From contig JAZDOJ010000052.1 in NCBI GenBank assembly GCA_043798795.1, forward strand, positions 30,940-94,939: 64,000 nt of DNA. The letters run 5' to 3'. This document shows, piece by piece, positions 24,001 through 27,000 of the stretch. Origin of the DNA: Candidatus Omnitrophota bacterium. GTDB taxonomy: Bacteria > Omnitrophota > Gorgyraeia > Gygaellales > Profunditerraquicolaceae. How positions within the stretch are numbered: position 1 is the first letter of the stretch; each line of letters opens with the position of its first letter. A program made the position numbers.

Positions 24001-27000
24001 CGTGCTGCCGTAAGTTTAGCGCTCATTAAAAAAATAATTGATTCTCATCCTTTTGTTGATATAATGATTTTGTCTTACGAAAGCATAAAGCGAAATCGCT
24101 TCATGCAAGGTTCATAGGGAAGGAGAGAGAGGAAATGATTACAGAAATCGGTATTGTGGCCGGCGATATATGGCATTTTTTGGACCAGCACGGAGAGGTT
24201 AGCATCTCGTTTCTCGTGAAAGGCATCGATAAGCCGCGCGATAATGTGTTGATGAGCCTGGGGTGGTTGGCGCGAGAGGGGCACGCGATCGTCCGGCAAG
24301 TTGAAGGGGATTATAAAATTAGCTTAAGGAAAGAGGATTAATCCTTGCGATGAATAAAAGAGGCGTGTTGTTGCTTATCGTGATTACGACTATAGTGGTA
24401 GCTATTGTTTTGAGTAATGTCATTTTAAATATAATGCTTAGTCAAGGCCGCCTGACCACCTATGAGCTCCACCGCATTCAGGCAAAATACGCGTGCATGG
24501 CAGGCATCAATTGGGGTTACCAAAATTTAATAACAGAGGATTGGGCAAGACCCTCAGTCGGAAATTGTGACAGAAGATCCCTGACAGATTCTGATGCTAC
24601 CTTTCCTTCCTCTATCAATAGCATTGATGTTTATATAGCCTCTCCTGGTGCCGCCTGTTTTAATGCCCTTGGTCAGCAAGTGACCGAGCCCTGCGAACCC
24701 CCTGATGGAGCTGAAGTTTGTATCAGCTCTGTGGCAGACTTCGTTTACACGCCTTAAAATCTTCCATTAAGAATATTATAATCTAAGTAAGACTATTATA
24801 AGATTATATGATCTAGCATGCATCATATTTCTTCTCAGCTAAGTAAAATAAGTAAGTCTGAGTAAGTCTATATAAGAAAACACTTGACAATATAAAAGTA
24901 TTATGTTCTAATTAAGCCTAATGTATTTTGTTATTATTTATAGGCATTTTGTTTCATGTGGTTGTGTTTAGGAGTATATTCGCATGACGAGATTAATGGA
25001 TGTTGATGAGTTAGCGGATTATCTGAGATTGAAAAAACAGACCATTTACAATTGGCTGCATCAGGCAAAGATCTCAGGGTTTAAGGTCGGCGGTGTATGG
25101 AGATTCGATCGTAAAGACGTGGAGGATTGGCTAAAAAGCCGAAGGCGGCTCTCAAAAGATTCAAGATTCGGAGAAAAACAATGAGTTCTCTAGGGATATA
25201 TTTTGGGTCTAAATCGATAAAAATAGTGGAGTGTAGAGGCCGCAAAATCATAAATACTGCCGAAATCCGTCACTCCACGGTCTCCGCGGGAGAATTGGAA
25301 GAGAAAGTTCCCATGGAAGTGAAGACCATTGAATTTGTCGCGCTTTTTAAAGATGAATTGCGAAGAAATAAGATTACCACTAAAGAGGCGGCCCTTTCTC
25401 TTTCTGGCAAGGATCTCATCATCAGGACCTTTGAGATACCCATGATCCCGCGCGAAGAGATAGAAAGCGCCGTCAATTTTGAAGCCAAAAAATACATCCC
25501 CTTTAAAGTCGAAGAGTTGATAACGGATTTTCAGCTGAAATTTGATAAGAGCAGCCATACGAACACGGTCTTTTTCATGGGGTTGAAAAGAGACACCTTG
25601 GACAAATACGTGGCTATCATGCAACAGTTAGGTATCAAGATTAGCGTTGTCGAATATTCAGCTTTTAGCATGATAAGGTGTTTGAAGCTGAGTGGCCTAA
25701 GCGATAAGGGAAATATAGCGATCTTAAGTGTTGATTTGATGGGGGAGGATGATGTTAATTTTACGGTTCTGGATAATGGTTTTCCTCTGTTCAGTCGGGA
25801 TATCTCTTTGACAAGAGGTCCGGAAAGCATAGTCCGGCTGAGAGAAGCCGGGCCCCAGGAGGCGCTCGAGAGGCTCAAGACAGAACTTCATGTTTCCTTG
25901 GATTACTATAACAGTAAATTTCCCACCAAGGGTCTCAAAAAAATATTTCTTATTTCCCAACAGGCCAACCGTTCGGAGATAGAGGCGATGATCAGGGAAT
26001 CCAATTTACAGGTTCAGTCTCTTAATACAGATACTTACCTGGAGAAGCCCGCTCCTTTCTCTTTGAGTTTTTTAAAAGCCTACAGCGCTTCTTTAGCCAA
26101 AACGATCAGGCTGCCTTTGAAGGTTGATCTCTTGACTGTCAGGGAAAAGTTAAAGTCGTTAAAAGAGAGAGCTCTTCCTAGGGCAAGGGTGTTTCGCCTT
26201 GAGGATTTAAGGCTGGATTACCGGATCCTCATCCTGGGTCTCCTGTTATGTGCCGGTGCGTACGGTTATGGCGTTTATCAAATGAAACCTTTACGTAGGG
26301 AACTCGTTGATGTCATGGCTCAAAGAAAAGCGGTTGCGAGCATCCATGCTGGCGCTGGTCAGGTAGAGTTAACCAAGATCGCTGTTTCGAACAAGGCCAA
26401 GCTTGAGTCCCTGGAAAGCCTTATCAATGGGCAGGTCTATCTTACGGAAATATTCAACGCCATCTCCCGGGATTTGCCTGAGGGCGTTTGGTTCATCGGT
26501 CTCTCTTTAGTCAAGAAAGAAGGAGGGAGGGTTGAGTTTGTTTTGGAAGGCAGAGTGAATCTGGGGGATGGCGATCAAGAATTCGAAGCCGTAAACAATC
26601 TCCTTTCGAACCTTCAAAACAGTCCTGATTTCGCCAAATACTTTATGCAAATCACTATAAGTTCTTTAAACCGGCAGACTTCAGGGGAACTGCTTTTTCC
26701 TTATACCCTGTTTAGCATTTCTTGTAGAAGCTACGTTAGCGAGTAATAGTCCTATGGATACCTCTGAATGGATTTTTAAAAACAAGAATAAGATCATCAA
26801 CATTTTATTTGTTGCTTTGTTTCTTTTTATTGCGGGAAAGATTTACGGCAAGCAGCTTGAGGCCATGAATCTTTTAGTGGAAAAGAAAGATCTGGAATTG
26901 AAAAAAAATGTCATATTGGACGGTATCAGCGGCACGGAGAAAAAAATCGCTGCCTACAGGAAGCTTCTGGGAGAAAAGGATGGTAGCAGCGTCATAAACA

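What the first reader, a model, noticed from the sequence alone, without database searches (positions are those of the whole stretch)
25181..26746. PilM-PilN fusion ORF with GspL-like architecture
A single 521-aa ORF carries a PilM-like actin-fold cytoplasmic domain (~350 aa), one TM helix (ILILGLLLCAGAYGYGVY) and a ~150-aa PilN-like periplasmic coiled-coil domain. In canonical T4aP these are two proteins. Cluster B (48086-49712) in the same window keeps them separate. The fusion mimics T2SS GspL and supports the view that cluster A is T2SS-like.
Basis: seen in the sequence. Interest (0 to 1): 0.6.

Follow-up and report, generated by a model that had tools for sequence, protein, structure and literature searches.

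The report
Conserved fused PilM-PilN pilus scaffold gene
This gene is a genuine fusion of two type IV pilus assembly proteins (PilM and PilN), conserved across the uncultured phylum Omnitrophota; it has the same layout as the secretion-system protein GspL, but this kind of fusion is already known and does not show that the gene cluster is a secretion system.

Summary
Window 25181-26746 (+) is one uninterrupted 521-aa ORF. It has a PilM-type actin-like domain (res 1-305), one TM helix (347-367) and a PilN-type periplasmic coiled coil plus ferredoxin-like domain (368-516).

It is not a sequencing artefact. More than 300 full-length homologues (25-80% identity) share the architecture. All 84 fetched relative loci (80 from the GTDB species-representative scan) carry an uninterrupted ORF, with the same flanking genes wherever the flanks reach.

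New details:
- The junction keeps the PilN N-terminal docking motif ([IVL]-[N/D]-L-L; LKVDLL here).
- The PilM ATP-binding motifs are degenerate across the family (D-x-G is Y-F-G in 94%; the GGG loop is absent).
- Subdomain 2B is about 25 residues shorter than in the cluster-B PilM.

The protein therefore has GspL topology and, probably, GspL-like nucleotide independence. By sequence and fold it is PilM+PilN: PilM ranks ahead of GspL by about 10 orders of E-value, and no GspL/T2SSL profile is hit.

The inference that cluster A is T2SS-like is not supported. The neighbours are PilO-, PilB/MshEN- and PilQ-like, and the major pilin looks like a T4a pilin. Natural PilM-PilN fusions already exist in a true pilus system (C. 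difficile).

Verdict: real and well conserved, but a new member of a known kind. Interest is modest.

The parts
25181..26746 (+). pilMN: single 521-aa ORF encoding the fused PilM-PilN protein (stop codon included)
   Evidence: ORF list. Pfam PilM_2 and PilN are both above the gathering score. More than 300 full-length homologues. Uninterrupted ORF in all 84 related loci.
25181..26095 (+). Cytoplasmic PilM-type actin-like (ASKHA) domain, res 1-305, with degenerate nucleotide-binding motifs (GIYFG for G-x-D-x-G; ISQQAN for SGGGS) and a shortened 2B subdomain
   Evidence: AF2 model, pLDDT mostly 85-92. Foldseek top hits are PilM 5eou/5eox/2ych/3jc8 at E 1e-19 to 1e-17. Profile search of the PDB. 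Motif statistics over 310 sequences. Alignments to cluster-B PilM.
26117..26134 (+). Junction motif LKVDLL (res 313-318), the retained PilN N-terminal PilM-docking motif (family consensus [LIV]-K-[IVL]-[N/D]-L-L)
   Evidence: Family statistics: N 62% / D 32%, L 89%, L 62%. Cluster-B free PilN begins MIEINLLP. pLDDT is 87-92 in the full-length model and below 50 when the PilM domain is removed.
26129..26218 (+). Juxtamembrane helix (res 317-331) and low-confidence basic linker (res 332-346) between the docking motif and the membrane
   Evidence: DSSP and pLDDT of the AF2 model; segment 330-345 has pLDDT below 50. Coordinates.
26219..26281 (+). Single transmembrane helix (res 347-367, YRILILGLLLCAGAYGYGVYQ)
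   Evidence: Top Kyte-Doolittle windows. A continuous helix 347-380 in the AF2 model.
26282..26728 (+). Periplasmic PilN-type part: coiled-coil helix (res 368-416) and ferredoxin-like alpha/beta domain (res 421-516)
   Evidence: Pfam PilN res 424-496. M. xanthus PilN 3jc8_Na, E 5.6e-4. hhalign to cluster-B PilN, 91.9%. AF2 secondary structure.
24984..25184 (+). 66-aa HTH_17 (excisionase/MerR-like) gene whose stop overlaps the pilMN start (ATGA); its position suggests translational coupling and a regulatory role for the operon (inference)
   Evidence: Pfam HTH_17, 61.8 bits. Sequence. Found just upstream of pilMN in 83 of 84 loci at median 75% identity.
26754..27260 (+). PilO-type partner (168 aa, N-terminal TM), expected periplasmic heterodimer partner of the PilN part
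   Evidence: Pfam PilO, 25.3 bits, cut-off 22. Found downstream of pilMN on the same strand in 79 loci of about 80 with enough flank, median aligned offset 26 nt.
27265..27810 (+). 181-aa TM-anchored protein at the PilP/GspC position (NLRDPF motif, beta-rich C-terminus); assigned by position only
   Evidence: No significant Pfam or NCBIfam hit. Position conserved in 78 loci. Sequence. The role is inferred.
27812..29401 (+). Secretin (STN/N0 + one Secretin_N + secretin domain)
   Evidence: Pfam Secretin, 137 bits. PilQ 209.5 versus GspD 208.2 bits, both below cut-off. ATG checked.
29404..31125 (+). Extension ATPase (PilB/GspE family) with an N-terminal MshEN c-di-GMP-binding motif
   Evidence: T2SSE 452 bits and MshEN 65.8 bits. 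PilB 617.8 versus GspE 596.8 bits; c-di-GMP motif NF053729 66.2 bits, cut-off 38.
31125..32354 (+). Platform protein (PilC/GspF family)
   Evidence: T2SSF 191.7 bits. GspF 337.7 versus PilC 317.9 bits, both below cut-off.
32484..34283 (+). Four prepilin-type genes (major pilin candidate 32484-32876, leader MKRG|FTLLE, four C-terminal Cys)
   Evidence: N_methyl hits. Only N-terminal matches to GspG/PilA models, all below cut-off. Sequences.

Best explanation
The ORF encodes a natural end-to-end fusion of PilM and PilN. It is the inner-membrane scaffold ('alignment/assembly subcomplex' subunit) of a secretin-containing machine of the type IV filament superfamily that is closest to type IVa pili. 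The gene is part of the conserved core genome of the phylum Omnitrophota.

Shown:
- One polypeptide carries a PilM-type actin-like cytoplasmic domain, the PilN N-terminal docking motif, one TM helix and a PilN-type periplasmic coiled coil plus ferredoxin-like domain.
- The gene sits in a tightly packed operon: HTH_17, pilMN, pilO, a pilP-position gene, secretin, pilB-like ATPase, pilC-like platform, pilins.

Inferred mechanism:
- The cytoplasmic domain sits beneath the membrane around the platform and ATPase, as PilM does, and tethers the ATPase as GspL does.
- The retained [IVL]-[N/D]-L-L segment docks on the PilM-type domain, by analogy in the groove where free PilN binds PilM. Docking could be in cis or onto a neighbouring subunit. 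The covalent link makes the PilM:PilN interaction obligatory and 1:1.
- The periplasmic domain pairs with PilO, and through the PilP-position protein contacts the secretin N0 domain.
- The phosphate-1 Asp and the adenosine GGG loop are replaced family-wide and subdomain 2B is trimmed. The domain therefore probably no longer binds ATP and acts as a passive scaffold like GspL. Regulation then lies elsewhere, for example in the c-di-GMP-binding MshEN domain of the ATPase.

The fusion most likely arose by loss of the stop/start between adjacent pilM and pilN genes, which are 10 nt apart in cluster B, before the Omnitrophota classes diverged.
For: - ORF and domains.
- PilM identity: family profile hits M. 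xanthus PilM (6e-22), Thermus PilM (7.5e-11) and P. aeruginosa PilM (6e-8), plus M. xanthus PilN (5.6e-4). Foldseek top ten are all PilM (E 3e-19 to 5e-17; TM-score on target up to 0.69). hhalign to cluster-B PilM gives 98.6% and to cluster-B PilN 91.9%. All 46 sampled members hit PilM_2 and 44 hit PilN.
- Not an artefact: 120 of 120 listed homologues are 503-531 aa. The fused length persists to about 25% identity, including Ca. Gygaella obscura, an Omnitrophota species. 333 GTDB species representatives encode a relative, and all 84 loci held have an uninterrupted ORF.
- Synteny.
- Docking motif: conservation statistics. Cluster-B PilN begins MIEINLLP. pLDDT is 87-92 with the PilM domain present and below 50 without it.
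- Literature on PilM binding the PilN N-terminus: PMC4471445 and PMC6916266. A single-chain PilM:PilN1-12 entry exists in the PDB (5eou).
- ATP-site degeneration: Y7 94%, F8 91%, no GGG, against GLDIGS / NIGAA / SGGGS in cluster-B PilM.
Against: - No experiment exists; Omnitrophota are essentially uncultured.
- Docking of the motif is indirect. Only pLDDT behaviour is available because the tools return no coordinates, and cis versus trans docking is unresolved.
- Loss of ATP binding is inferred from motifs only.
- The PilM_2 Pfam match covers only profile positions 1-208 of 340, and TIGR01175 scores 85 bits against a cut-off of 133. The domain is a divergent PilM.
- The periplasmic-domain fold search did not discriminate.
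- Whether the machine makes a surface pilus, a pseudopilus for secretion, or a DNA-uptake fibre cannot be decided from these data. No PilT or prepilin peptidase lies in the window.
Confidence: 0.8

Rival explanations
1. The protein is a functional GspL, and cluster A is a type II secretion system (or T2SS-like pseudopilus machine) that exports folded proteins through the secretin.
For: - The topology is identical to GspL, and GspL is regarded as a PilM-PilN fusion (PMC10191384; PMC4471445).
- ATP motifs are lost and 2B is shortened; that GspL shares these traits is from my own knowledge of the EpsL structures.
- GspL cytoplasmic domains are significant structural matches (1yf5 E 7e-10, TM-score on target 0.71; 4pht).
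- The platform scores slightly higher for GspF than for PilC (337.7 versus 317.9 bits).
- No PilT is present in the window.
- The protein at the PilP position is TM-anchored rather than an obvious lipoprotein, which resembles GspC.
- T4P-type machines can secrete proteins (C. perfringens).
Against: - No hit to T2SSL or GspL_C in any of 46 members at E<=1, and no GspL chain in the PDB by profile at E<=10.
- PilM ranks about 10 orders of magnitude better than GspL in Foldseek.
- The partner is PilO-type, not T2SSM.
- The secretin has one N domain beyond N0 rather than N0-N3, and scores equally for PilQ and GspD.
- The ATPase is PilB-like over its full length.
- The pilins fail the GspG/GspH cut-offs, and the major pilin has T4a-like C-terminal cysteines.
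- No PDZ-containing GspC was detected.
- A fused PilMN occurs in a genuine pilus system.
Confidence: 0.12
2. The fusion is an artefact: a sequencing or assembly error removed the stop/start junction between separate pilM and pilN genes near nt 26100-26220.
For: Canonical T4aP systems, and cluster B in the same window, have separate genes only 10 nt apart. A single indel could therefore join them.
Against: - The same uninterrupted architecture appears in 120 of 120 listed homologues, in nearly all of the best 150 cluster representatives down to about 25% identity, and in all 84 independently assembled loci from many studies and sequencing platforms.
- The junction residues are themselves conserved.
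- The junction is modelled with high confidence.
Confidence: 0.01
3. Cluster A is an MSHA-type pilus locus (single-locus mshI-J-K-L-E-G order), and the fused protein is an MshI-like component.
For: - The gene order (fused scaffold, PilO-like, small protein, secretin, ATPase with MshEN domain, platform, pilins) recalls the msh operon order. This is from my own knowledge and was not verified.
- MSH systems are almost always encoded in a single locus (PMC6668835).
- The ATPase carries the MshEN c-di-GMP motif.
Against: - The secretin scores far lower for MshL (135 bits, cut-off 250) than for PilQ or GspD (about 209 bits).
- The ATPase's best model is PilB.
- No MshM/MshN-like genes lie between the secretin and the ATPase.
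- MshEN domains are not restricted to MSH systems (own knowledge).
- A literature search for MshI together with PilM/PilN found nothing useful.
Confidence: 0.05

Closest known systems
PilM + PilN of type IVa pili (M. xanthus 3jc8, T. thermophilus 2ych, P. aeruginosa 5eox/5eou)
   Same: - Same two Pfam families (PF11104, PF05137), and these are the best sequence and fold matches.
- Same order of elements: actin-like domain, [IV]-N-L-L docking motif, TM helix, coiled coil, ferredoxin-like domain.
- Same neighbours: PilO, secretin, PilB-like ATPase, PilC-like platform.
   Different: - The two proteins are covalently joined.
- The nucleotide-binding motifs are replaced (Y-F-G for D-x-G; no GGG loop), and 2B is about 25 residues shorter.
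- The Pfam match covers only the N-terminal 208 of 340 profile positions, and the score is below the TIGR01175 cut-off.
GspL / PulL / EpsL of type II secretion systems
   Same: - Bitopic topology: cytoplasmic actin-like domain, one TM helix, periplasmic ferredoxin-like domain. It is viewed in the literature as a PilM-PilN fusion.
- Significant structural match of the cytoplasmic domain (1yf5, 4pht, 1w97, 5tkw).
- Apparent lack of a nucleotide site. For GspL this is from my own knowledge of the EpsL structures.
   Different: - No detectable sequence relationship.
- Fold similarity is weaker than to PilM (1e-9 versus 1e-19).
- The fusion keeps a PilN-type docking motif and a residual 2B subdomain.
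- Its partner is PilO-type rather than GspM-type, and the rest of the cluster is not T2SS-specific.
PilMN fusion of Clostridioides difficile (monoderm T4aP)
   Same: A natural single-gene fusion of PilM and PilN in a pilus-forming system (PMC6916266, citing Melville and Craig 2013).
   Different: - It occurs in a monoderm host with no secretin or PilP.
- That review reports a different PilM-PilN interaction motif in monoderms.
The fusion is probably independent (inference).
Amuc_1101 family 'PilM-like pilus complex protein' (Akkermansia, PVC group; NCBIfam NF045709, 608 aa)
   Same: A long PilM-like protein in a PVC-group pilus locus. Model positions 52-348 match PilM, and positions 355-482 are weakly matched by the cluster-B free PilN (E 7e-4). 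It is therefore probably also a PilM-PilN-type fusion.
   Different: The cluster-A fusion matches this model only weakly (53.6 bits, positions 59-169). The split cluster-B proteins resemble it more (155.5 bits). It is therefore not the same family.

Membership tests
PilM (Pfam PF11104 PilM_2 / TIGR01175) | Sequence match above the curated cut-off | tested here: met
   PF11104 scores 60.7 bits against a cut-off of 27, but only over profile positions 1-208 of 340. All 46 family members match. The stricter TIGR01175 subfamily model scores 85.1 bits against a cut-off of 133, which is not met.
PilM (Pfam PF11104 PilM_2 / TIGR01175) | Actin-like ASKHA fold with an FtsA-type 1C subdomain, closest to solved PilM structures | tested here: met
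   AF2 pLDDT is 85-92 over most of res 1-305. The Foldseek top ten are all PilM chains (E 3e-19 to 5e-17), followed by FtsA and then GspL. Subdomain 2B is shortened by about 25 residues relative to cluster-B PilM.
PilM (Pfam PF11104 PilM_2 / TIGR01175) | Nucleotide-binding motifs (phosphate-1 D-x-G, adenosine G-G-G) | tested here: not met
   The fusion has GIYFG (Y 94%, F 91% across 310 sequences) and ISQQAN in place of the GLDIGS and SGGGS of cluster-B PilM. Actual binding was not measured.
PilM (Pfam PF11104 PilM_2 / TIGR01175) | Binds the conserved N-terminal peptide of PilN | tested here: inconclusive
   The motif is present and conserved. Its pLDDT depends on the presence of the PilM domain (87-92 versus below 50). 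No coordinates or contacts are available.
PilN (Pfam PF05137) | Sequence match above the curated cut-off | tested here: met
   27.1 bits against a cut-off of 22.8, at res 424-496. 44 of 46 members match. M. xanthus PilN matches at E 5.6e-4 over query 349-468. hhalign to cluster-B PilN gives 91.9%.
PilN (Pfam PF05137) | Short cytoplasmic segment with an [IV]-N-L-L-P motif, one TM helix, then a periplasmic coiled coil and ferredoxin-like domain | tested here: met
   LKVDLL at res 313-318 (family N/D 94%, L 89%) but without the trailing Pro. TM helix at 347-367. Helix 394-416 and a beta-alpha-beta domain at 421-516. The periplasmic fold search gave only weak PilO/PulM matches.
GspL (Pfam PF05134 T2SSL + PF12693 GspL_C) | Sequence match to the GspL cytoplasmic or periplasmic domain families | tested here: not met
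   No hit in any of 46 members at E<=1. No GspL chain was found in the PDB by family profile at E<=10.
GspL (Pfam PF05134 T2SSL + PF12693 GspL_C) | Bitopic architecture: actin-like cytoplasmic domain, TM helix, ferredoxin-like periplasmic domain in one chain | tested here: met
   The GspL cytoplasmic domains 1yf5, 4pht and 1w97 match at E 7e-10 to 6.5e-8, with TM-score on target 0.65-0.71.
GspL (Pfam PF05134 T2SSL + PF12693 GspL_C) | Binds the N1E domain of GspE and pairs with GspM | not testable with these tools
   The neighbour is PilO-type (PF04350, 25.3 bits), not T2SSM. The ATPase N-terminus is MshEN-type. The interactions need experiments or multimer models with coordinates.
Type II secretion system (locus level) | GspC with an HR domain plus PDZ or coiled coil; GspD with N0-N3; GspG-K pseudopilin set reaching the model cut-offs | tested here: not met
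   The PilP-position protein has no PDZ domain and no significant hit. The secretin has STN plus one Secretin_N, and GspD scores 208 bits against a cut-off of 351. GspG scores 31.7 bits against 88.85 and GspH 26.5 against 80.
Type IVa pilus machine (locus level) | PilM, PilN, PilO, a PilP-position protein, PilQ-type secretin, PilB, PilC and pilins | tested here: met
   All are present in one operon. The equivalog cut-offs for PilB (617.8 versus 675.65) and PilQ (209.5 versus 284.35) are not reached, so this is a divergent system.
Type IVa pilus machine (locus level) | PilT retraction ATPase and PilD prepilin peptidase in the genome | not testable with these tools
   None was found in the 64-kb window. 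The rest of the genome is not available.

The most novel reading that the evidence does not exclude
The Omnitrophota PilMN protein could be a living intermediate, or an independent replay, of the evolutionary step that produced GspL from PilM plus PilN. It is fused, has lost its nucleotide site and has a trimmed 2B subdomain, yet it still carries the PilN docking peptide and a recognisable PilM/PilN sequence. On this reading the phylum-wide cluster A works as an ATP-independent-scaffold machine, specialised for secretion or for host-cell contact in these ultrasmall, possibly parasitic bacteria. It would also supply the motor (ATPase and platform) for the second, motor-less PilMNOPQ cluster B in the same genome.
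Probability: 0.2. Interest if true: 0.5.

Novelty: new member of a known kind. Interest (0 to 1): 0.3.

Why it matters
It gives a well-sampled natural example, in a diderm lineage with a secretin, of the PilM-PilN fusion that textbooks invoke to explain the origin of GspL: more than 300 sequences, a whole phylum, and identities down to about 25%. Because the docking motif survives inside the fused chain while the ATP motifs do not, the family could help answer two open questions in type IV filament biology. The first is what the PilM nucleotide is for. The second is whether the PilM:PilN contact has to be dynamic. For genome annotation, these genes are at present labelled inconsistently as 'PilM', 'PilN domain-containing protein' or 'hypothetical', and they should not be used on their own to call a T2SS. 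For Omnitrophota biology, the locus is a conserved core feature, which is consistent with an important surface-filament function.

Tried and rejected
- **Fold search of the isolated periplasmic fragment:** did not discriminate. The top hits were phage tail-terminator proteins (E about 4e-4), with PilO (2rjz, 5uvr) and PulM (7ze0) only at E about 1e-2. It cannot separate a PilN-like from a GspL-periplasmic-like domain.
- **hhalign of the family against cluster-B PilN:** aligned only the periplasmic domain, not the N-terminal motif. The motif equivalence rests on inspection and conservation.
- **Literature searches for Omnitrophota pili or PilM:** found no description of this fusion.
- **Melville and Craig 2013:** not held. 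The C. difficile fusion is cited second-hand from PMC6916266.
- **Search for the PilM:PilN chimera paper:** did not retrieve it. The orientation of the engineered 5eou chimera was not verified.
- **MSHA-type assignment:** considered and rejected on secretin and ATPase scores. The literature search on MshI was uninformative.
- **Upstream TTG start (25127):** rejected in favour of the ATG at 25181, because homologues start at M1.
- **Promoter/terminator scan:** promoter-like sites were not above the shuffled expectation, and terminator-like sites only slightly above it (17 versus 10.9, sd 3.4). No operon boundaries are claimed from it.
- **Sequencing-error hypothesis:** rejected.
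Full report
**1. The observation**

The window carries an uninterrupted + strand ORF. The ATG is at 25181 and the TAA at 26744-26746, giving 521 aa. An in-frame TTG at 25127 would add 18 residues. However, 45 aligned homologues start at the ATG-encoded Met (M1 at least 90% conserved). That ATG overlaps the stop codon of the upstream gene (ATGA) and has a GGAG 11 nt upstream.

Pfam finds PilM_2 at residues 5-208 (60.7 bits, cut-off 27) and PilN at residues 424-496 (27.1 bits, cut-off 22.8).

An AlphaFold2 model built on a 46-sequence alignment has mean pLDDT 80.4. It shows:
- an alpha/beta actin-like domain (res 1-305);
- a confidently placed non-helical segment (305-316);
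- a helix (317-331) and a disordered linker (330-345);
- one long membrane helix (347-380);
- a second long helix (394-416);
- a beta-alpha-beta domain (421-516).

The description is therefore correct. The small correction is that the folded PilM-like domain is about 305 aa rather than about 350.

**2. Not an artefact**

- The first homology search gave 492 hits. The best 120 are all 503-531 aa, cover 96-100% of the query at 44-80% identity, and are mostly labelled Omnitrophota/Omnitrophica.
- The exhaustive search of 1.84 billion cluster representatives gave 5382 hits at E<=1e-3 and 207 at E<=1e-30. Nearly all of the best 150 have the fused length of about 500-540 aa, down to about 25% identity. 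The shorter ones align at one end, as contig-truncated fragments would.
- One fused member at about 25% identity comes from Ca. Gygaella obscura, which NCBI taxonomy places in Ca. Omnitrophota.
- A scan of GTDB species representatives found 333 genomes encoding a relative. The best 80 are Omnitrophota-type MAGs, a few of them labelled otherwise by their submitters.

A lost stop/start junction in this one assembly is thus excluded.

**3. Context**

Cluster A is a tight operon, with intergenic distances of -4 to +8 nt from the HTH gene to the platform gene. Its genes are:

| Coordinates | Gene | Evidence |
|---|---|---|
| 24984-25184 | HTH_17 | |
| 25181-26746 | pilMN | |
| 26754-27260 | PilO | PF04350 |
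| 27265-27810 | 181-aa TM-anchored protein at the PilP/GspC position | no family hit |
| 27812-29401 | secretin | STN + one Secretin_N + Secretin |
| 29404-31125 | PilB/GspE-family ATPase | MshEN domain and c-di-GMP motif |
| 31125-32354 | PilC/GspF platform | T2SSF |
| 32484-34283 | four prepilin-type genes | N_methyl |

The same order, including the upstream DUF2582 and HTH_17 genes, is found in relatives at 45-51% identity. Across the 84 loci, HTH_17 is present in 83, PilO in 79, the PilP-position gene in 78, the secretin in 75, and so on, limited only by the flank length.

The remainder of the window is housekeeping: arginine biosynthesis, UvrA, Obg, proBA and RNase G. This is chromosomal core, not a mobile element.

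**4. What the protein is**

By sequence it is PilM plus PilN.
- The family profile finds M. xanthus PilM (6.4e-22), T. thermophilus PilM (7.5e-11), P. aeruginosa PilM (6e-8) and M. xanthus PilN (5.6e-4; query 349-468 against PilN 24-141). It finds no GspL chain at E<=10.
- All 46 sampled members hit PilM_2 and 44 hit PilN. None hits T2SSL or GspL_C at E<=1.

By fold, the ten best PDB matches are PilM structures (E 3e-19 to 5e-17). FtsA follows (about 1e-12), then the cytoplasmic domains of EpsL/GspL (1yf5 7e-10, 4pht 1e-9, 1w97, 5tkw).

hhalign aligns residues 66-289 with the separate PilM of cluster B (98.6%), and residues 377-513 with the separate ORF 49137-49712 (91.9%, E 7e-7). This shows that ORF to be cluster B's PilN.

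**5. Anatomy of the junction**

Free PilN proteins begin with a conserved [IV]-N-L-L-P peptide that binds PilM (literature). Cluster B's PilN begins MIEINLLPEE.

In the fusion, eight residues after the last helix of the PilM domain, stands LKVDLL (res 313-318). Across 310 unique family members the consensus is [LIV]-K-[IVL]-[N 62% / D 32%]-L 89%-L 62%. The fusion is thus a simple end-to-end join that preserved PilN's docking peptide.

In the full-length model this coil segment has pLDDT 87-92. In a model of residues 300-521 alone, the same residues fall below 50. This is what one expects if the model's confidence comes from packing against the PilM domain. The test is indirect, because the tools return no coordinates. 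The PDB also holds a single-chain PilM:PilN1-12 construct (5eou), so a covalent link between the two is physically feasible. I did not verify the orientation of that construct.

**6. Degenerate nucleotide site**

| Motif | Cluster-B PilM | Cluster-A fusion |
|---|---|---|
| Phosphate-1 | GLDIGS | GIYFGS |
| Phosphate-2 | NIGAA | VDLMGEDD |
| Adenosine loop | SGGGS | ISQQAN |

Family-wide, Tyr replaces the phosphate-1 Asp in 94% of sequences, Phe follows in 91%, and no glycine-rich adenosine loop is present. About 25 residues of subdomain 2B are missing relative to cluster-B PilM. This explains why the Pfam match stops at profile position 208.

I infer that the domain no longer binds ATP. This is an inference from motifs, not a measurement. 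According to my own knowledge of the EpsL structures, it matches GspL, whose cytoplasmic domain lacks 2B and binds no nucleotide.

**7. How it most likely works**

Shown: the domain composition, the topology and the operon partners.

Inferred from established knowledge of T4aP and T2SS (PMC4471445, PMC6916266, PMC10191384):
- The cytoplasmic domain lies under the membrane around the platform protein and links to the extension ATPase.
- The docking peptide occupies the PilM groove in cis or on the neighbouring subunit.
- The periplasmic part heterodimerises with PilO.
- The PilP-position protein bridges to the secretin N0 domain.

The covalent link fixes a 1:1 PilM:PilN stoichiometry and makes the interaction constitutive. 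With the nucleotide site gone, the protein would be a passive scaffold. Regulation would then be left to other parts, for example the c-di-GMP-binding MshEN domain of the ATPase (NF053729, 66 bits against a cut-off of 38) and possibly the two small DNA-binding proteins encoded upstream.

**8.

[quoted passage not shown] It also records a natural PilM-PilN fusion in the T4aP of C. difficile. The NCBIfam Amuc_1101 model (608 aa, Akkermansia) is matched by cluster B's PilM over positions 52-348, and weakly by its PilN over 355-482. This suggests another such fusion in the PVC group (tentative).

The architecture is therefore known. What is new is that an entire diderm phylum carries its own version.

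The step from 'fused' to 'cluster A is T2SS-like' does not hold:
- No component reaches a T2SS equivalog cut-off.
- Secretin, ATPase and platform score about equally for the pilus and secretion models.
- The scaffold partner is PilO-type.
- The secretin lacks the N2-N3 domains.
- The pilins fail the GspG/H models.
- The likely major pilin has a short leader (MKRG|FTLLE) and four C-terminal cysteines, as T4a pilins do.
- C. difficile shows that a fused PilMN can serve a true pilus. C. perfringens shows that a split PilM/N/O machine can serve secretion.

The function of the filament (pilus, pseudopilus or DNA uptake) remains open. No PilT or prepilin peptidase is in the window.

**9. Verdict**

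- Observation: confirmed.
- Interpretation: partly supported. The T2SS inference does not.
- Novelty: a new member of a known kind (natural PilM-PilN fusions / GspL-type scaffolds). It has the modestly interesting twist of a retained docking peptide combined with a lost nucleotide site, conserved across a phylum.
- Interest: 0.3.

Noticed in passing
window 24135-24341 and 24984-25184: Two small DNA-binding genes always precede pilMN: a 68-aa DUF2582 winged-helix protein and a 66-aa HTH_17 (excisionase/MerR-like, also close to the MADS1 HTH model). The HTH_17 stop overlaps the pilMN start (ATGA). Both are more conserved across Omnitrophota (median 75-76% identity) than PilMN itself (about 42-50%). 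HTH_17 is present in 83 of 84 loci. Their position suggests they regulate the pilus operon (inference).
   Followed up: partly
window 24350-24757: A 135-aa ORF with an N-terminal hydrophobic helix and five cysteines has no family hit apart from a weak match to the GspK N-terminus (E 1.5e-3). It is conserved between DUF2582 and HTH_17 in 60 loci at about 36% identity. It might be an atypical minor pilin or a tip protein.
   Followed up: partly
window 43738-52495 (cluster B): The second type IV filament cluster has a TPR protein, four pilin-like ORFs, separate PilM, PilN and PilO, a 142-aa PilP-position protein and a secretin. It has no ATPase or platform gene of its own in the window. It may depend on the cluster-A motor or on genes elsewhere. 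Its PilM and PilN resemble the Akkermansia Amuc_1101 model more than the cluster-A fusion does.
   Followed up: partly
window 29404-31125: The cluster-A extension ATPase carries an N-terminal MshEN domain with the c-di-GMP-binding motif (NF053729, 66.2 bits against a cut-off of 38). This implies second-messenger control of filament assembly.
   Followed up: no
window 16523-23645: UvrA, a large TPR protein, ExbB/ExbD-like genes and an unassigned 211-aa ORF lie upstream of the pilus locus. The UvrA-TPR(-ExbBD) arrangement is also found next to pilMN in relatives L001 and L003. This is unusually stable long-range synteny for 45-51% identical genomes.
   Followed up: no
window 34473-37155: A radical-SAM gene followed by a fused AmmeMemoRadiSam B+A (Memo/AMMECR1) gene lies directly downstream of the pilins. 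A Memo/AMMECR1 gene also follows the locus in L001.
   Followed up: no
window 1-64000: Almost every sizeable ORF with a family assignment is on the + strand. GC skew is positive in 31 of 32 2-kb bins, so the cumulative skew rises almost monotonically. This suggests the whole window lies on one replichore with strong co-orientation of genes.
   Followed up: no
window 32867-33680: The second and third prepilin-type ORFs, as listed, overlap their neighbours by 10 and 80 nt and begin with GTG/TTG well upstream of the G|FTL[IM]E-type cleavage motif. Their true starts are probably internal ATGs.
   Followed up: no
model of window 26078-26743 (res 300-521): The best Foldseek PDB hits of the isolated periplasmic part were phage tail-terminator proteins (lambda gpU, E about 4e-4), ahead of PilO and PulM (E about 1e-2). 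This is probably a generic small alpha/beta sandwich resemblance, but it was not examined further.
   Followed up: no
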